A program made the position numbers and the translations under genes. Under the pieces are notes generated by a model. It ran no database searches, was not told where the DNA came from, and saw nothing but the letters and a program-made list of their open reading frames with translations. This document shows, one piece after another, positions 43,205 through 55,826 of a DNA stretch of 64,000 nt (position 1 is its first letter; each line of letters begins with the position of its first letter). The DNA comes from Escherichia coli (GTDB lineage Bacteria > Pseudomonadota > Gammaproteobacteria > Enterobacterales > Enterobacteriaceae). Where the stretch lies: the NCBI RefSeq assembly GCF_045037415.1, contig NZ_CP173438.1; one strand, given 5' to 3'.

Positions 43205-43236
43205 AAAAAACCCCGGCCTTATTGACCGGGGTTTTT
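43205..43236 (-). terminator. rrn operon terminator (bidirectional hairpin)
   Basis: ccccggccttattgaccgggg flanked by A-run and T-run, just 3' of the 5S rRNA. Confidence 0.8.
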
Positions 43237-48880: not shown

Positions 48881-50470
48881 ATGCAACAACGTCGTCCAGT
48901 CCGCCGCGCTCTGCTCAGTGTTTCTGACAAAGCCGGTATCGTCGAATTCGCCCAGGCACTTTCCGCACGCGGTGTGGAGCTGCTGTCTACAGGGGGCACT
49001 GCCCGTCTGTTAGCAGAAAAATGTCTGCCGGTAACCGAAGTTTCCGATTACACCGGTTTCCCGGAGATGATGGATGGACGCGTGAAGACCCTGCATCCGA
49101 AAGTACATGGTGGCATTCTGGGCCGTCGCGGCCAGGACGATGCCATTATGGAAGAACATCAGATCCAGCCTATCGATATGGTGGTTGTTAACCTGTATCC
49201 GTTCGCCCAGACCGTCGCTCGTGAAGGCTGCTCGCTGGAAGATGCGGTAGAGAACATCGATATCGGCGGCCCAACGATGGTGCGCTCCGCCGCCAAGAAC
49301 CATAAAGATGTCGCAATCGTGGTGAAGAGCAGCGACTACGACGCCATTATTAAAGAGATGGATGCCAACGAAGGATCGCTGACGCTTGCAACCCGTTTCG
49401 ACCTCGCCATCAAAGCCTTCGAACACACTGCCGCCTACGACAGCATGATTGCCAACTACTTCGGCAGCATGGTTCCGGCTTACCACGGTGAAAGCAAAGA
49501 AGCCGCCGGTCGCTTCCCACGCACGCTGAACCTGAACTTCATTAAGAAGCAGGATATGCGTTACGGCGAGAACAGCCACCAGCAGGCTGCCTTCTATATA
49601 GAAGAGAATGTGAAAGAAGCCTCCGTTGCTACCGCAACCCAGGTTCAGGGTAAAGCTCTCTCTTATAACAACATCGCCGATACCGATGCGGCGCTGGAGT
49701 GCGTGAAAGAGTTCGCCGAGCCGGCATGTGTGATTGTGAAGCACGCCAACCCTTGCGGCGTGGCTATCGGCAATTCCATTCTTGATGCTTACGATCGCGC
49801 GTACAAAACCGACCCAACCTCCGCATTCGGCGGCATCATTGCCTTTAACCGCGAACTGGATGCTGAAACCGCGCAGGCCATCATTTCTCGTCAGTTCGTC
49901 GAAGTGATTATTGCGCCGTCCGCCAGCGAAGAAGCCCTGAAAATCACCGCCGCCAAGCAGAACGTACGCGTTCTGACCTGCGGTCAGTGGGGCGAACGTA
50001 TTCCGGGTCTTGATTTCAAACGCGTGAACGGCGGTCTACTGGTTCAGGATCGCGATCTGGGGATGGTCGGTGCGGAAGAACTGCGCGTCGTCACCAAACG
50101 TCAGCCGACTGAACAGGAACTTCGTGATGCGCTGTTCTGCTGGAAAGTGGCGAAGTTCGTGAAATCCAACGCTATCGTCTATGCCAAAAACAATATGACC
50201 ATCGGTATTGGCGCAGGCCAGATGAGCCGCGTGTACTCCGCGAAAATCGCCGGTATTAAAGCTGCCGATGAAGGTTTGGAAGTGAAAGGTTCGTCAATGG
50301 CTTCTGACGCGTTCTTCCCGTTCCGCGACGGTATTGATGCCGCAGCCGCTGCGGGCGTGACCTGCGTAATCCAGCCTGGCGGTTCTATCCGTGATGACGA
50401 AGTAATTGCCGCCGCCGACGAGCACGGTATTGCGATGCTCTTCACCGACATGCGCCACTTCCGCCATTAA
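48881..50470 (+). CDS. purH: AICAR transformylase / IMP cyclohydrolase
   Basis: 529 aa [27 protein letters not shown]... Confidence 0.97.
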
Positions 50471-50481
50471 TGGAGCGACAG

Positions 50482-51771
50482 ATGAAAGTATTAGTGATCG
50501 GTAACGGCGGGCGCGAGCACGCGCTGGCCTGGAAAGCGGCTCAGTCGCCGCTGGTTGAAACTGTTTTTGTTGCTCCGGGCAATGCAGGCACTGCGCTGGA
50601 ACCCGCGCTACAGAACGTCGCTATCGGCGTAACCGATATCCCGGCGCTGCTGGATTTCGCACAAAACGAAAAGGTAGATCTAACCATCGTCGGCCCGGAA
50701 GCGCCGCTGGTGAAAGGCGTAGTCGATACCTTCCGCGCCGCCGGGCTGAAAATCTTCGGCCCAACCGCAGGTGCTGCACAACTGGAAGGTTCTAAAGCAT
50801 TCACCAAAGACTTTCTGGCCCGCCATAACATTCCCACAGCGGAATACCAGAACTTCACCGAGGTAGAACCTGCGCTGGCATATCTGCGTGAGAAAGGCGC
50901 GCCAATCGTCATTAAAGCTGACGGTCTGGCAGCCGGGAAAGGCGTTATCGTGGCGATGACGCTGGAAGAAGCTGAAGCAGCTGTTCACGATATGCTGGCG
51001 GGCAACGCGTTTGGCGACGCGGGTCATCGTATTGTTATCGAAGAGTTCCTCGACGGTGAAGAAGCGAGCTTTATCGTGATGGTGGACGGCGAGCATGTGC
51101 TACCGATGGCCACCAGCCAGGATCACAAACGCGTAGGCGATAAAGATACCGGGCCAAACACCGGCGGAATGGGGGCTTACTCTCCTGCGCCGGTAGTGAC
51201 CGATGAAGTTCATCAGCGCACCATGGAACGTATCATCTGGCCAACCGTGAAAGGCATGGCGGCGGAAGGCAACACCTACACCGGTTTTCTCTATGCGGGC
51301 CTGATGATCGACAAACAGGGTAATCCAAAGGTTATTGAATTTAACTGCCGCTTTGGCGATCCGGAAACCCAGCCGATTATGCTGCGCATGAAGTCCGATC
51401 TGGTTGAGCTCTGCCTGGCGGCCTGTGAAGGCAAGCTGGACGAGAAAACGTCCGAGTGGGATGAACGCGCTTCTCTCGGCGTGGTGATGGCTGCGGGTGG
51501 ATATCCGGGCGATTACCGCACCGGCGATGTGATCCACGGCCTGCCGCTGGAAGAAGTGGCAGACGGCAAAGTGTTCCACGCGGGCACGAAACTGGCGGAT
51601 GACGAGCAGGTAGTGACCAGCGGCGGGCGCGTACTGTGCGTTACCGCGCTGGGTCATACCGTGGCAGAAGCGCAGAAACGCGCTTATGCCTTAATGACCG
51701 ATATCCATTGGGACGACTGCTTCTGCCGGAAAGATATCGGCTGGCGCGCTATCGAACGCGAGCAGAACTAA
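50482..51771 (+). CDS. purD: phosphoribosylamine-glycine ligase
   Basis: start at MKVLVIGNGGREHALAWK (429 aa). Confidence 0.96.
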   Translation: MKVLVIGNGGREHALAWKAAQSPLVETVFVAPGNAGTALEPALQNVAIGVTDIPALLDFAQNEKVDLTIVGPEAPLVKGVVDTFRAAGLKIFGPTAGAAQLEGSKAFTKDFLARHNIPTAEYQNFTEVEPALAYLREKGAPIVIKADGLAAGKGVIVAMTLEEAEAAVHDMLAGNAFGDAGHRIVIEEFLDGEEASFIVMVDGEHVLPMATSQDHKRVGDKDTGPNTGGMGAYSPAPVVTDEVHQRTMERIIWPTVKGMAAEGNTYTGFLYAGLMIDKQGNPKVIEFNCRFGDPETQPIMLRMKSDLVELCLAACEGKLDEKTSEWDERASLGVVMAAGGYPGDYRTGDVIHGLPLEEVADGKVFHAGTKLADDEQVVTSGGRVLCVTALGHTVAEAQKRAYALMTDIHWDDCFCRKDIGWRAIEREQN

Positions 51772-53093
51772 CGCGACAGTTTTGCCAATAGCGTTTTGCG
51801 CGTGATCCCTAACTGGCGGGCGGCTTCGGTTTTGTTGCCGCCCGTTTTCTCCAGCGCCGCCAGAATCACCTCTTTTTCGACTTCCACCAGCGGCTGAATA
51901 TCCTGACTTTGTACCAGCGGGATCGGCGTACTGGCAATCGCCAGCGGCAGCTCGCGTTCGGAAATATATTCCCCGGTCAGCAGCACCACCGCCCGTTCCA
52001 CCGCGTTTTCCAGTTCACGAATATTTCCCGGCCAGTCGTAATGAATCAGCAGATCCATCGCCTGGGGCGTAAAGCCTTTTACCGCCTTGCGATTACGTTC
52101 GGCAAAGCGCTGAAGAAAATGGCCAGCCAGCAGAGGAATATCTTCCCGCCGTTGCCGCAGCGATGGTACTTCAATCGCCACCACGTTCAGCCGATAGTAG
52201 AGATCCTGGCGAAAACGCCCGGCATTCACCTCTGCGGCAAGATCGCGATGGGTCGCCGCAATCAGCCGGACATCAACCGAGATAGTCTGGTTGCTGCCGA
52301 CACGTTGCACTTCGCGCTCCTGAATCGCACGCAGCAGACGAACCTGCATCATCGGCGAGATATCGCCAATCTCATCGAGAAACAGCGTGCCGCCGTCCGC
52401 CTCAACAAAGCGCCCTTCTCGCCGTTTGTCGGCTCCGGTAAACGCCCCTTTTTCATGACCGAACAATTCAGATTCCAGCAAGGATTCGTTGAGTGCCGCA
52501 CAGTTGAGCGTTACCAGCGGTTTTTCGCTACGTGCGCTACTGGCGTGAATCGCCCTGGCGACCAGCTCTTTACCGGTACCGGAATCGCCGTGGATCAGCA
52601 CCGTGGCTTCCGATGGCGCGACGAGGGCGATTTCACTGAGCAGGTGTTGCATCGCCGGGCTTTTACCGACCATACCGAACTGGCTGGCAGACACCGCAGG
52701 CGTTTCAGCGTCGATACTGTGCGTATGCGCGAGCGCCTTTTCCAGCGTTGCCTGCAGGTTATCGAAATCCAGCGGCTTGATGAGGTAATCCAGCGCCCCG
52801 GTTTTCAGTGCCTCTACCGCCGTCTCGACGCTGGAGTACGCGGTCATAATCAGTACCGGAATCGCCGGATTTAACGCTTTGATCTCTTTTAGCGTGGCGA
52901 TGCCGTCCATCTCTGCCATTCGCACATCGCAAAGCACAAGATCGAAAACCTGTTCCCGCACCTGCTCCAGCGCCTGTCGCCCGCTGTTCGCCAGCGCGAC
53001 GTTATAGCCCCAGCCGCGCAGTAAAGCCTGCAAAATAGTGCAGTGGCTAATGTCATCATCCACCACCAGAATATCGATATTATCGTGCGTCAT
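51768..53093 (-). CDS. zraR: sigma-54-dependent response regulator ZraR (HydG)
   Basis: 441 aa; receiver domain, AAA+ sigma54-activation domain ([14 protein letters not shown]), C-terminal HTH. Confidence 0.93.
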
Positions 53094-54466
53094 CCTTGTG
53101 GGTCCTTACGCGTAATATTGACCGGAAGCCAGAGGGTGAACGTTGCGCCTTTCCCCTCCTGGCTTGCAACCTGAATTGTACCACCGTGTTGTTCAACAAT
53201 ATTATGCACGACCGCCAGCCCCAGTCCGGTGCCTTCGGCTTTGGTGGTGAAGTACGGAGTGAAGATGGCTTCAAGCTGATCCGCCGCAATTCCCTTACCG
53301 CTGTCGGTAACGCTGATTTTCACGCCCGCGCCGCTTTCGCTGGCCGTCACGCTAATCACGCCATGCAGACCAATCGCCTGAATAGCGTTGAGATAGAGAT
53401 TCAACAGGACCTGAGTCAGCCTGTCCGGATCGGCCTGAATTTCCGGTAATGTGTCGTTGGCGGTAAAGCGTAACTGGATCTCCCGGCTGTTTGCATCCTG
53501 GCTTACCAGCTGTAATGAGTGGCTAATCAGCGTGTTGAGCTCCACCGCCTGCAAAGCCAGATGCGTTGGCTTAACCAGTTCCAGCAGCTCGCTTACCACG
53601 CGGTTTAAACGGTCGGCTTCTTTCGCCATCACCTGCGCCAATTGATGCGCTTCTCCCCCTGCTGGCGCGCGTTCGGCAAAGTATTTCGCCAGCCCTTTAA
53701 TCGAGGAAAGTGGGTTACGGATTTCGTGGGCAACGCCTGCCGCAAGATGCCCCAGTGCCACCAGCTTCTCTTTGCGCTTCATTTCATCCTGCAACAGCTG
53801 GCCCGAGCGCAGATATCGGCGATACCAGAAGAATGACAACACGCTTGCCAGCAAGACCGTCGCCAGGGCGAAGAGGATAATCAGGGTGTTTCTCTGCTCA
53901 CGATCTTCGGCACTCACAATGTTACTGGCGTCGAAAGCGATAAAAATTGCTTGTGGTGTCGCGGCATACTGCTGCATATGGCGCATCCGGTGCATTCCAG
54001 CAGCAAACATCGGTTGAAACTGGCGATAAATTTCCAGAACAGGCTCGCCGTCTGCGCTATCGATCCGCCGCCACGCTTCTTCATCTCCCGGATGTAACTG
54101 CTGCATTTCCTGCGGGGAATAAAGCTGTTTTCCCACCATGCCGGAGTTGCTATGCATCACGATTGTTCCTTGTTCATCCGTGACCGCAAACCAACGTACT
54201 CCAGGCTGCCCGGCCATTTCTTCCAGTAAGGCCTGCTGCTGCGCATGATGCATGCGCATCCCCATTCCGACGCGCGAGCCGGATTCGAGAGCACGGATAA
54301 GTACACTGCCTTTTTCCAGCAGCGTTTGTCTGGCGGCGGCAGTCTCGCGCCCATAATCGCGAATCACTGTCACCGCAAACAGCCCCACCAGCCCAACAAT
54401 GACCACGGGGAGGATCGCGCTTAACCATTTAGCTAAGGAGTCTTTAGAACGTTGCATAAAACGCAT
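53090..54466 (-). CDS. zraS: sensor histidine kinase ZraS (HydH)
   Basis: 458 aa; TM segments, H-box (HEIRNPL) and ATPase motifs; 4-nt overlap with zraR. Confidence 0.9.
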   Translation of the reverse strand: MRFMQRSKDSLAKWLSAILPVVIVGLVGLFAVTVIRDYGRETAAARQTLLEKGSVLIRALESGSRVGMGMRMHHAQQQALLEEMAGQPGVRWFAVTDEQGTIVMHSNSGMVGKQLYSPQEMQQLHPGDEEAWRRIDSADGEPVLEIYRQFQPMFAAGMHRMRHMQQYAATPQAIFIAFDASNIVSAEDREQRNTLIILFALATVLLASVLSFFWYRRYLRSGQLLQDEMKRKEKLVALGHLAAGVAHEIRNPLSSIKGLAKYFAERAPAGGEAHQLAQVMAKEADRLNRVVSELLELVKPTHLALQAVELNTLISHSLQLVSQDANSREIQLRFTANDTLPEIQADPDRLTQVLLNLYLNAIQAIGLHGVISVTASESGAGVKISVTDSGKGIAADQLEAIFTPYFTTKAEGTGLGLAVVHNIVEQHGGTIQVASQEGKGATFTLWLPVNITRKDPQG

Positions 54467-54703: not shown

Positions 54704-55123
54704 ATGAAACGGAACACGAAAATTGCCCTGGTAATGATGGCGCTTTCAGCAATGGCGATGGGATCGACATCGGCATTTGCTCACGGCGGACACGGTATGT
54801 GGCAGCAAAATGCCGCGCCTTTGACCAGCGAACAACAAACAGCGTGGCAGAAAATCCATAATGACTTTTACGCTCAAAGCAGCGCACTGCAACAGCAACT
54901 GGTGACAAAGCGTTATGAATACAATGCCCTGTTAGCCGCGAACCCACCGGATAGCAGCAAAATTAACGCGGTCGCCAAAGAGATGGAGAATTTGCGTCAG
55001 TCGTTAGATGAGTTACGGGTGAAACGAGATATTGCGATGGCTGAAGCGGGTATTCCGCGCGGTACCGGAATGGGTTACGGCGGCTGCGGTGGTGGCGGTC
55101 ATATGGGTATGGGCCACTGGTAA
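54704..55123 (+). CDS. zraP: zinc-resistance-associated periplasmic protein
   Basis: start at MKRNTKIALVMMALSAMAMGSTSAFA with RBS ggagg; Gly/His/Met-rich C-terminus. Confidence 0.88.
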   Translation: MKRNTKIALVMMALSAMAMGSTSAFAHGGHGMWQQNAAPLTSEQQTAWQKIHNDFYAQSSALQQQLVTKRYEYNALLAANPPDSSKINAVAKEMENLRQSLDELRVKRDIAMAEAGIPRGTGMGYGGCGGGGHMGMGHW

Positions 55124-55124
55124 A

Positions 55125-55826
55125 TCAGAACGTTTTCTCGTTGGGTTGCCAGCGACAGAAATCAGAGTTTGCCACCAACAGTAATTGCGAACCTTCGGGC
55201 GCTTCCAGCCATGCCACGCTGACATCAACAGAAGAACGGCTCTGGCGGCGCTCGATATGCGCTATCGCCTGCGAATCTAAATCAGGTTTAATGGTTTGCC
55301 CTTCGCAGGTGGTCACAGTCTGCTCCATCGCATGCCAGCGCCCCTGGCGCAGCACGACTCTCCCCTGGCGTAAGGCATCGCTAATCTCGCGGATCTGCGC
55401 GGCACGATAACGGTATAAATCGATCTGATCATTGGAAAGCTGCTGCTTTTGCCCGTCGGATTCACGTTGCATAAAGCTCAAGTCACCGCGATCGTCAAAA
55501 CGCGCCCGGATGTTTACCGGCGGTTTGCTGTAAACGTTGATATTGATAAGCGTGAGGTTATCGCCCTGCCAGCGATACTCTCGCGTCGTCGTATCGCCAC
55601 TGCGCCACGGGCTAAACACGGCAAGAAGATGCACATTATCGCCGCTGTCTTTTCGCCAGATGCGTACCGCGCCCTGGTCTTCAGCAAATCCACTGGCGGT
55701 AAAGGGAGGAAGTGAAGAGTTGTGACTACAGGCAGTGAGAAACAGCGCACCTGCCAGCATCAATGATCGACGCCAGAAAGACAAAAGGGGTGAAACCACC
55801 CCTTCGTTAAAACTGTTCACTGCCAC
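55125..55826 (-). CDS. yjaH: YjaH lipoprotein (DUF1481)
   Basis: ORF of 233 aa with lipobox-like LTACS; exact start uncertain. Confidence 0.8.
   Translation of the reverse strand: MAVNSFNEGVVSPLLSFWRRSLMLAGALFLTACSHNSSLPPFTASGFAEDQGAVRIWRKDSGDNVHLLAVFSPWRSGDTTTREYRWQGDNLTLININVYSKPPVNIRARFDDRGDLSFMQRESDGQKQQLSNDQIDLYRYRAAQIREISDALRQGRVVLRQGRWHAMEQTVTTCEGQTIKPDLDSQAIAHIERRQSRSSVDVSVAWLEAPEGSQLLLVANSDFCRWQPNEKTF

What the first reader, a model, noticed from the sequence alone, without database searches (positions are those of the whole stretch)
51768..51771. Convergent purD and zraR share stop-codon nucleotides
purD ends with TAA at 51769..51771 and zraR (minus strand) ends with TAG at 51768..51770, so the two convergent genes overlap by 3 nt with no room for separate terminators. 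Convergent transcription collision or one shared bidirectional signal inside a coding region is implied. Probably conserved in E. coli, so low novelty.
Basis: seen in the sequence. Interest (0 to 1): 0.1.

Follow-up and report, generated by a model that had tools for sequence, protein, structure and literature searches.

The report
purD–zraR four-base tail-to-tail gene overlap
Two E. coli genes that face each other, purD and zraR, really do end on top of each other by four bases. This is a common, already annotated arrangement, and each operon appears to have its own stop signal hidden inside the other gene.

Summary
purD (+) ends with TAA at 51769-51771 and zraR (-) ends with TAG at 51768-51770. 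The coding sequences overlap by 4 nt (CTAA, 51768-51771), not 3, and the two stop codons share 2 nt. RefSeq annotates the same overlap in MG1655 (b4004/b4005). The junction is present in 5420 of 5426 complete E. coli genomes. The 4-nt overlap recurs in Citrobacter, Kluyvera, Klebsiella, Phytobacter and Kosakonia; K. aerogenes has 11 nt instead. CTAA is one of the four tetramers of the commonest class of convergent overlap, and zraR-purD is already listed as a convergent "excludon".

There seem to be two separate one-way signals:

- **purHD:** 45 nt past the purD stop, inside the zraR codons for [10 protein letters not shown], lies a perfect 8-bp GC hairpin followed by a U-tract (51817-51852, + strand). 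All five four-fold synonymous sites in its stems are invariant in 14 orthologues, against 10 of 141 elsewhere in the gene (p = 6e-6). I read it as the purHD intrinsic terminator, but I found no mapped 3' end.
- **zraSR:** published bicyclomycin data place a Rho-dependent termination region about 266 nt into antisense purD.

The finding is ordinary and of low interest.

The parts
50482..51771 (+). purD coding sequence, the last gene of the purHD operon; stop TAA at 51769-51771
   Evidence: RefSeq annotation; TIGR00877 match at E = 2.6e-190; translation.
51768..53093 (-). zraR coding sequence, the last gene of zraSR; stop TAG is the reverse complement of 51768-51770
   Evidence: RefSeq annotation; NF007689 match over 1-441 of 441; translation.
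51768..51771 (.). The 4-nt tail-to-tail overlap, CTAA. Position 51768 is both the third base of purD's last codon (AAC) and the G of zraR's TAG. Position 51771 is both the last A of purD's TAA and the third base of zraR's last codon (CGT).
   Evidence: CTAA is present in all 15 sequences examined. It is one of the four tetramers of the commonest class of convergent overlap (PMC2174442).
51772..51852 (+). Predicted purHD 3' untranslated tail, about 81 nt and fully antisense to the last 27 codons of zraR
   Evidence: Inferred from the hairpin position.
51817..51844 (+). Hairpin CGGGCGGC, 12-nt loop UUCGGUUUUGUU, GCCGCCCG. It is encoded by zraR codons T417 to R426, in the helix-turn-helix region.
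   Evidence: The hairpin alone folds at -18.4 kcal/mol. The 51-nt context folds at -22.6 kcal/mol with z = -2.9. All five four-fold synonymous sites in the stems are invariant in 14 orthologues, against 10 of 141 elsewhere (p = 5.8e-6). The four-fold site in the loop varies freely. It is one of only two such hairpin-plus-TTTT sites in the 64 kb window.
51845..51852 (+). U-tract UUUUCUCC directly after the hairpin (UUUUUUC in most other genera). The predicted purHD 3' end is near 51851-51853, which is MG1655 minus strand about 4204561.
   Evidence: No mapped 3' end was found in the Adams 2021 tables.
51430..51690 (-). Zone of zraSR read-through and Rho-dependent termination inside antisense purD. 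The RNA here is C-rich and G-poor. The published Rho peak at MG1655 4204911 (+) corresponds to about window 51502.
   Evidence: PMC7815308 supplementary file 2 gives 74/17 reads without bicyclomycin and 172/169 with it, Rho score 4.28, p = 5.7e-8. The C/G ratio is 1.2-1.8 from +80 to +340 nt.
48881..50470 (+). purH, the first gene of the purHD operon (context)
53090..54466 (-). zraS, upstream of zraR and overlapping it by 4 nt on the same strand (context)

Best explanation
purD and zraR are the last genes of two convergent operons, purHD and zraSR. Their stop codons interdigitate in the tetramer CTAA. This looks like a by-product of the zraPSR cassette sitting, without any spacer, between purD and yjaH. 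Relatives that lack the cassette have purD, a 40-130 nt spacer that often carries a classical terminator, and then the convergent gene yjaH.

With no intergenic DNA, each operon ends inside the other gene.

1. **purHD (inferred).** Polymerase runs about 80 nt into antisense zraR and stops at an intrinsic terminator. This is an 8-bp GC hairpin at 51817-51844 followed by a U-tract at 51845-51852. It is built from the zraR codons ACG GGC GGC ... GCC GCC CG, so those codons serve two purposes: they encode the protein and they form the terminator of the neighbouring operon.
2. **zraSR (published data, coarse resolution).** Polymerase runs past the zraR stop into untranslated, C-rich antisense purD RNA and is stopped by Rho about 270 nt downstream.

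The two transcripts can therefore be complementary over roughly 350 nt (51502-51852), which fits the published "excludon" call.

**Shown:** the overlap, its conservation, the hairpin, and the constraint on its synonymous sites. **From the literature:** Rho dependence and transcript overlap. **Inferred:** that the hairpin actually terminates purHD.
For: - **Overlap and annotation:**
- **Conservation:** the junction is in 5420 of 5426 E. coli genomes. The 4-nt CTAA overlap, with hupA-yjaH-zraP-zraS-zraR-purD-purH gene order, is found in Klebsiella, Phytobacter, Kosakonia and Kluyvera. It is also found in Citrobacter, Kluyvera and Escherichia.
- **Likely ancestral state:** genomes without the zra cassette have a spacer after purD, usually with a hairpin plus T-run, followed by convergent yjaH.
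- **Hairpin:**
  - All 5 four-fold sites in the stems are invariant, against 10 of 141 elsewhere (hypergeometric p = 5.8e-6). The four-fold site in the loop shows all four bases.
  - SNPs within E. coli fall in the flanks and the loop, not in the stems or the U-tract.
  - Only two such hairpin-plus-TTTT sites exist in the 64 kb window. The other follows the 5S rRNA gene. Simulated sequences average 0.1 per window.
  - The paralogues atoC and glrR have neither the protein motif nor the hairpin.
- **zraSR:** a Rho termination region at MG1655 4204911 (+), antisense to purD (PMC7815308), and C>G composition of the downstream RNA.
- **Transcript overlap:** zraR-purD is in the E. coli convergent excludome (PMC12288877).
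- **Precedent:** 58 convergent overlaps are reported in E. coli, 19 with a predicted rho-independent terminator for one of the two genes, which must lie in coding sequence (PMC2174442).
Against: - I found no mapped purHD 3' end at the hairpin. The Adams 2021 supplementary tables, including its curated Term-seq list, have no entry between MG1655 4204400 and 4204999 other than the Rho region, and no entry naming zraR. Five other papers had no usable supplementary data for these genes.
- The 12-nt loop is longer than in most intrinsic terminators, and the tool's consensus scan missed the site for that reason.
- The E. coli U-tract is only UUUUCU, and in K. grimontii it is interrupted (GUUCUUUC).
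- The stems never vary, so there is no compensatory covariation. The case for selection rests on invariant synonymous sites.
- The hairpin forms equally well on the zraR mRNA, so the constraint could serve zraR instead.
- The published Rho call uses 800-nt windows with low read counts, and it cannot show that the RNA starts at the zraSR promoter.
Confidence: 0.65

Rival explanations
1. One shared bidirectional signal, or collision-driven termination (the first reader's idea; the model of Ju et al. 2019 and the Wang et al. preprint). The palindromic hairpin would pause polymerases from both sides, and head-on collisions would end both transcripts there.
For: - The hairpin forms on both strands with similar energy.
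- The collision model needs a hairpin in the overlapping region of a convergent pair (bioRxiv 10.1101/2022.10.23.513370).
- The two transcripts do overlap.
Against: - The hairpin lies 46-73 nt upstream of the zraR stop codon, so ending zraSR there would produce mRNA without a stop codon.
- On the zraR-sense strand the hairpin has no U-tract after it, and it would be unwound by translating ribosomes.
- RNA in the zraR-sense direction continues about 266 nt past the stop and is sensitive to bicyclomycin.
- From general knowledge, zraSR is a sigma-54, metal-induced operon with low basal expression, so collisions should be rare.
Confidence: 0.08
2. The conserved hairpin serves zraR rather than purHD. 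It could be an mRNA structure that affects translation or decay of the zraR 3' end, or a DNA palindrome bound by a protein. In that case purHD would simply read through until Rho stops it.
For: - The synonymous-site constraint does not say which strand is under selection.
- The hairpin folds on the zraR-sense RNA.
- The RNA beyond the hairpin in the purD-sense direction is also C-rich, which would suit Rho.
- No purHD 3' end has been mapped at the hairpin.
Against: - The T-run sits on the purD-sense side in 14 of 15 sequences, and it is a longer TTTTTT in most genera.
- The hairpin starts 45 nt after the stop of the last gene of an operon, where terminators normally sit. Relatives without the zra cassette usually carry a classical terminator 4-30 nt after purD.
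- The only other hairpin-plus-TTTT of this quality in the window lies just after the 5S rRNA gene, where an rrn operon terminator is expected.
Confidence: 0.15
3. The overlap has no functional content. Both transcripts read through until they decay or Rho acts, and the conserved hairpin is an accident of codon usage in a conserved protein motif.
For: - GGC and GCC are preferred E. coli codons.
- The stems show no covariation.
- Four-base convergent overlaps can arise neutrally (PMC2174442).
Against: - Of 18 conserved Gly or Ala positions that use GGC or GCC in E. coli, only 5 are invariant across the orthologues, and 4 of those 5 are the stem sites.
- Overall, all 5 stem sites are invariant against 10 of 141 other sites, p = 5.8e-6.
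- Chance expectation for such a hairpin plus TTTT is about 0.1 per 64 kb on both strands together.
Confidence: 0.05
4. The overlap is an annotation artefact, with one of the two genes really ending earlier.
For: None found.
Against: - Stop codons are not a matter of annotation choice. Both frames are open up to these stops.
- Both proteins match their family models to the last position.
- The C-terminus ...LAKLSR* is kept across genera.
Confidence: 0.01

Closest known systems
Four-base convergent (tail-to-tail) gene overlaps of prokaryotes, tetramer class CTAA/TTAA/CTAG/TTAG (Lillo & Krakauer 2007, PMC2174442)
   Same: Two stop codons on opposite strands are interdigitated in CTAA, and the overlap has the commonest length, 4 nt. 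That paper counts 58 convergent overlaps in E. coli. In 19 of them one gene has a predicted rho-independent terminator, which must lie in coding sequence.
   Different: Nothing essential differs. I could not check whether purD-zraR is one of their 19.
Intrinsic (Rho-independent) terminators
   Same: A GC-rich 8-10 bp stem with a U-tract directly after it, 45 nt downstream of the stop of the last gene of an operon. Stability is about -18 to -23 kcal/mol.
   Different: It lies wholly inside the coding sequence of the convergent gene, so its stems are also Gly-Gly and Ala-Ala codons. The loop is long (12 nt). The E. coli U-tract is short. No 3' end has been mapped.
Convergent excludons (ExcludonFinder, PMC12288877)
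   Same: zraR-purD is listed among the 165 convergent excludons of E. coli MG1655, meaning overlapping transcripts in at least 50% of 58 RNA-seq data sets.
   Different: The listing shows only that transcripts overlap. Mutually exclusive expression or RNase III processing has not been shown for this pair.
Overlapping bidirectional terminators between convergent genes (Ju et al. 2019; Wang et al. preprint 10.1101/2022.10.23.513370)
   Same: A convergent pair with a palindromic hairpin in the region both operons transcribe.
   Different: The hairpin lies inside the zraR reading frame rather than between the two stops. It has a U-tract on one side only. The opposite transcript appears to be stopped by Rho farther on.
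Rho-dependent termination of read-through and antisense RNA (Adams et al. 2021, PMC7815308)
   Same: A bicyclomycin-sensitive drop in coverage in untranslated, C-rich RNA antisense to a gene, like many other "antisense" entries in that table.
   Different: None apparent. It is an ordinary case.

Membership tests
4-nt convergent gene overlap (CTAA/TTAA/CTAG/TTAG class) | Two coding sequences on opposite strands whose 3' ends overlap by exactly 4 nt, stops included | tested here: met
   purD is 50482..51771 (+) and zraR is 51768..53093 (-). MG1655 shows the same, 4204642-4204645.
4-nt convergent gene overlap (CTAA/TTAA/CTAG/TTAG class) | The overlap tetramer is one of the four that hold a stop codon on each strand | tested here: met
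   CTAA at 51768-51771. The tetramer list is in PMC2174442.
4-nt convergent gene overlap (CTAA/TTAA/CTAG/TTAG class) | Both genes are genuine up to their annotated ends | tested here: met
   Both match their NCBIfam models end to end. The C-termini are conserved in 14 orthologues.
Intrinsic terminator (for purHD) | A stable GC-rich stem-loop in the nascent RNA | tested here: met
   An 8 bp stem with 8 of 8 G-C pairs, extendable to 10 bp. Energy is -18.4 to -22.6 kcal/mol, z = -2.9.
Intrinsic terminator (for purHD) | A U-tract directly 3' of the stem on the transcribed strand | tested here: met
   UUUUCUCC in Escherichia and Kosakonia, UUUUUUC in most others, and interrupted in K. grimontii.
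Intrinsic terminator (for purHD) | Located shortly downstream of the stop codon of the last gene of the operon, in untranslated RNA | tested here: met
   The stem starts 45 nt after the purD stop.
Intrinsic terminator (for purHD) | Transcript 3' ends map to the U-tract in vivo or in vitro | tested here: inconclusive
   The Adams 2021 supplementary tables, including its curated 3' end list, have no entry at MG1655 4204400-4204999. Other data sets were not available as text or did not mention the genes. Absence from one curated list is not proof.
Intrinsic terminator (for purHD) | Evolutionary maintenance of the stem | tested here: met
   All 5 four-fold sites in the stems are invariant against 10 of 141 elsewhere, p = 5.8e-6. 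There are no compensatory changes because 9 of 10 pairs never vary.
Bidirectional terminator shared by a convergent pair | The hairpin lies between the two stop codons, or at least downstream of both | tested here: not met
   The hairpin at 51817-51844 lies inside the zraR reading frame, upstream of its stop at 51768-51770.
Bidirectional terminator shared by a convergent pair | A U-tract after the hairpin on both strands (an A-tract before it on one strand) | tested here: not met
   On the zraR-sense strand the hairpin is followed by CCAGUUAGGGA.
Rho-dependent terminator (for zraSR) | Read-through increases when Rho is inhibited | not testable with these tools
   Taken from the literature. PMC7815308 supplementary file 2 lists 4204911 (+) antisense to purD, with 74/17 reads without bicyclomycin and 172/169 with it, score 4.28, p = 5.7e-8.
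Rho-dependent terminator (for zraSR) | C-rich, G-poor untranslated RNA upstream of the termination zone | tested here: met
   C is 36-40% and G is 22-28% from +80 to +340 nt after the zraR stop. The C/G ratio reaches 1.8. The enrichment is modest.
Excludon | Overlapping transcripts from neighbouring genes on opposite strands | not testable with these tools
   Taken from the literature. zraR-purD appears in Table 1 of PMC12288877.
Excludon | Reciprocal effect on expression, through transcriptional interference or RNase III cleavage | not tested
   No data found.

The most novel reading that the evidence does not exclude
The 3' overlap could act as a regulatory link. When purines are scarce, purHD is strongly transcribed. 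Its roughly 80-nt antisense tail, plus any read-through past the embedded terminator, could then lower zraSR mRNA by transcriptional interference or RNase III cleavage. That would tie purine supply to the ZraPSR envelope and zinc stress response. A related reading is that the ZraR motif [10 protein letters not shown] was itself shaped by the need to host the neighbouring operon's terminator, since the paralogues AtoC and GlrR lack it.
Probability: 0.1. Interest if true: 0.4.

Novelty: already known. Interest (0 to 1): 0.13.

Why it matters
It matters little as a discovery. The overlap is annotated, belongs to the commonest class of convergent overlap, and the pair is already listed as an excludon.

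It has modest value as a clean worked example. It shows how two operons can end without any intergenic DNA, each stopping inside the other gene. It also shows how a terminator can impose measurable constraint on the synonymous sites of a neighbouring gene's DNA-binding motif. There are two practical consequences:

- Recoding or codon optimisation of the zraR 3' end, or deleting zraR, could remove the purHD terminator.
- Mutations at 51768-51771 affect both genes at once. For example, the rare zraR stop-loss allele TAG to CAG corresponds to purD TAA to TGA.

Tried and rejected
- **Built-in promoter and terminator scan.** It found nothing at the junction and missed the hairpin, because it only allows loops of 8 nt or less. 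My own scan with loops up to 12 nt found it.
- **Search for a mapped purHD 3' end.** The Adams 2021 supplementary tables have no entry for purD or zraR other than the Rho region. For PMC9023263, PMC12288877, PMC6061677 and PMC11092163 no supplements were held as text. TERMITe (PMC12207403) and SMRT-Cappable-seq (PMC6131387) supplements do not mention these genes. The Ju et al. 2019 paper is not held.
- **Literature searches.** "purHD + terminator" and "hydG + purD" returned nothing relevant.
- **Rfam.** No family matched. The one hit, a lncRNA exon at E = 0.82, is noise.
- **Covariation test on the hairpin.** It is uninformative because 9 of 10 pairs never vary. I used the synonymous-site test instead.
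- **First ZraR homologue search.** It returned only E. coli and E. albertii sequences. A second search seeded with Kluyvera ZraR was needed to reach other genera.
- **An intrinsic terminator for zraSR inside antisense purD.** Hairpins exist there (z = -2.6 for the region), but none is followed by a U-tract, so I rejected this in favour of Rho.
- **Hairpin forced by the protein family motif.** I rejected this because atoC and glrR have neither the motif nor the hairpin.

Full report
**1. The observation**

The + strand at 51760-51779 reads gagcagaacTAAcgcgacag. purD ends ...EREQN* with TAA at 51769-51771. zraR on the minus strand ends ...LLAKLSR* with TAG, the reverse complement of 51768-51770. 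The ORF list gives 50470..51771 (+) and 51768..53093 (-). RefSeq for an identical strain gives purD 50482..51771 and zraR 51768..53093 in window coordinates.

The coding sequences overlap by 4 nt (CTAA), and the two stop codons share 2 nt.

Gene identities are secure. PurD matches TIGR00877 at E = 2.6e-190. ZraR matches NF007689 over 1-441 of 441. ZraS, PurH and ZraP are also confirmed.

**2. Is it more than chance, and is it known?**

MG1655 carries the same overlap: zraR is 4203320..4204645 (+) and purD is 4204642..4205931 (-).

- A 1-kb query around the junction matches 5420 of 5426 complete E. coli genomes.
- A 95-nt query covering the junction and hairpin also matches 5420 of 5426, all at 90% identity or better. 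Both genes lie under every listed match.
- The 4-nt overlap is annotated in each record whose coordinates I read.

Lillo & Krakauer (PMC2174442) describe this class exactly. [quoted passage not shown] They count 58 convergent overlaps in E. coli. In 19 of them one gene has a predicted rho-independent terminator, which must lie in coding sequence. ExcludonFinder (PMC12288877) lists zraR-purD among 165 convergent excludons of MG1655.

Within this window, the nine convergent gene pairs have gaps of 154, 93, 46, 0, 89, 16, 63, -4 and 1 nt. Tight tail-to-tail packing is therefore common locally.

**3. Comparative picture**

Eighty purD loci from one genome per species were fetched and searched with tblastn.

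- zraSR lies next to purD only in Escherichia, Kluyvera and Citrobacter among that sample.
- All other Enterobacterales sampled lack zraPSR at this site. They have purD, a 40-130 nt spacer, and then the convergent gene yjaH.
- In most of the more distant genera (Serratia, Yersinia, Pantoea, Rahnella, Brenneria, Shimwellia, Mangrovibacter, and also Aeromonas) the sequence just after purD holds a classical hairpin plus T-run 4-30 nt past the stop.

Eight further ZraR orthologues were found with a second protein search and located on their contigs. They come from K. grimontii, K. michiganensis, K. aerogenes, Phytobacter diazotrophicus, Kosakonia arachidis, Kluyvera intermedia and two others. All show the gene order hupA-yjaH-zraP-zraS-zraR-purD-purH. 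All but one show a 4-nt zraR/purD overlap. In K. aerogenes purD ends 7 nt later at TGA, giving an 11-nt overlap.

The likely history is that zraPSR was inserted between purD and yjaH in part of the Enterobacteriaceae, leaving no spacer at either edge. In this window zraP and yjaH are 1 nt apart.

**4. Where does transcription stop? purHD**

Forty-five nt past the purD stop, the + strand reads CGGGCGGC-UUCGGUUUUGUU-GCCGCCCG-UUUUCUCC (51817-51852).

- It folds at -18.4 kcal/mol alone and at -22.6 kcal/mol in a 51-nt context (z = -2.9).
- The tool's consensus scan missed it because its loop limit is 8 nt.
- A scan of the whole window on both strands for a perfect 8-bp stem with at least 6 G-C pairs, a loop of 3-12 nt, and TTTT after it finds only two sites. 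One is this hairpin. The other, at 43233-43209 (-), lies directly after the 5S rRNA gene, where the rrn operon terminator is expected. Simulated sequences give 0.1 sites per window.

The hairpin is made of zraR codons T417 (ACG), G418 and G419 (GGC GGC), and A424, A425 and R426 (GCC GCC CG). In a codon alignment of 14 orthologues from six genera:

- 146 four-fold-degenerate sites sit at conserved residues, and only 15 have an invariant third base.
- Five of those 15 are exactly the five four-fold sites in the stems.
- A sixth is the last codon, R441 (CGT), whose T pairs with the final A of purD's TAA.
- The single four-fold site in the loop (T422) shows all four bases.
- The hypergeometric and Fisher p-value is 5.8e-6.
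- Among conserved Gly/Ala positions that use GGC or GCC in E. coli, 5 of 18 are invariant, and 4 of those 5 are stem sites.

SNPs within E. coli hit the flanks and the loop but not the stems, the U-tract or CTAA. The paralogues atoC and glrR have neither the GG...AA motif nor the hairpin. There is no compensatory covariation, because 9 of 10 pairs never vary.

The T-run lies on the purD-sense side in 14 of 15 sequences. On the zraR-sense RNA the hairpin is followed by CCAGUUAGG. I therefore read it as the intrinsic terminator of purHD, embedded in zraR.

The weak point is experimental. The Adams et al. 2021 supplementary tables, including its curated Term-seq list, have no entry in this interval apart from the Rho region, and I could reach no other 3' end table that covers these genes.

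**5. Where does transcription stop? zraSR**

Adams et al. (PMC7815308, supplementary file 2) list a Rho termination region at MG1655 4204911 (+), classed as antisense to purD. Coverage upstream/downstream is 74/17 without bicyclomycin and 172/169 with it, giving a Rho score of 4.28 and p = 5.7e-8. That position is 266 nt past the zraR stop, about window 51502.

The zraR-sense RNA from +80 to +340 nt is C-rich and G-poor, with a C/G ratio up to 1.8. Hairpins exist in that stretch, but none is followed by a U-tract.

**6. Synthesis**

There is no room between the genes, but there are two separate one-way signals, each inside the partner's coding sequence. Together they create a zone of roughly 350 nt where the two transcripts can be complementary, which fits the excludon listing.

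A shared bidirectional terminator or a collision mechanism (for the model) is unlikely. The hairpin precedes the zraR stop codon and has a U-tract on one side only.

Natural variants show the junction tolerates change:

- An 11-nt overlap in K. aerogenes.
- Rare E. coli ZraR stop-loss alleles of 456 and 469 aa. In the 469-aa form, TAG to CAG would turn purD's TAA into TGA.

**7. Verdict**

The feature is real, conserved, annotated, and a member of the commonest class of convergent overlap. The only added value here is the evidence that a terminator-like hairpin for purHD is held in place by selection on synonymous sites of the zraR helix-turn-helix codons. Interest is low.

Noticed in passing
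window 55121-55127: The other edge of the zraPSR cassette is packed just as tightly. The zraP stop TAA and the yjaH stop (TCA on the + strand) are separated by a single base (TAAaTCA). yjaH-zraP is also a published excludon, and Adams 2021 lists a strong Rho region antisense to zraP (MG1655 4201402, score 17.2).
   Followed up: partly
window 52944-52979 (-): zraR has an in-frame indel hotspot in the receiver domain, at [12 protein letters not shown], where short CAGG/CGGG repeats occur. E. coli ZraR variants of 436-448 aa differ here and at other in-frame sites. Two 437-aa forms are seen on 88 and 188 contigs.
   Followed up: partly
window 51768-51771 and orthologous loci L003, L006-L008, L034, L083-L090: CTAA is invariant in the 14 intact-zraR orthologous sequences (and in E. 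albertii), although TTAA, CTAG and TTAG would also keep both stops. In the 13 sequences where purD stops at this TAA, its last residue varies (N, R, S, H) but the codon always ends in C. The last zraR codon is always CGT. This is unexplained and could reflect stop-context preference.
   Followed up: partly
L002:3308-4631 (E. albertii NBRC 107761): zraR carries a frameshift near codon 262 and an internal stop, so it is an apparent pseudogene (or a draft assembly error). The CTAA junction and the hairpin are still intact.
   Followed up: partly
window 20651/20652: yjbD (+) and rluF (-) are convergent with no intergenic base at all. Adams 2021 lists a Rho region antisense to yjbD in MG1655.
   Followed up: no
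window 43209-43233 (-): This is the only other perfect 8-bp GC-rich hairpin plus TTTT in the 64 kb window. It lies directly after the 5S rRNA gene and is presumably the rrn operon terminator.
   Followed up: no
loci L004, L005, L009, L010, L012-L014, L018: Enterobacteriaceae that lack zraPSR have a purD-yjaH spacer with CCCTCTCCC...GGGAGAGGG-type hairpins but no T-run on the purD strand. This differs from the classical terminators seen in more distant genera. zraPSR presence is patchy even within Phytobacter: absent in P. massiliensis and present in P. diazotrophicus.
   Followed up: no
proteins P0002 and P0003 (E. coli ZraR variants): These are rare stop-loss alleles that extend ZraR by 15 or 28 residues into antisense purD. 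Each is a single-member cluster.
   Followed up: no
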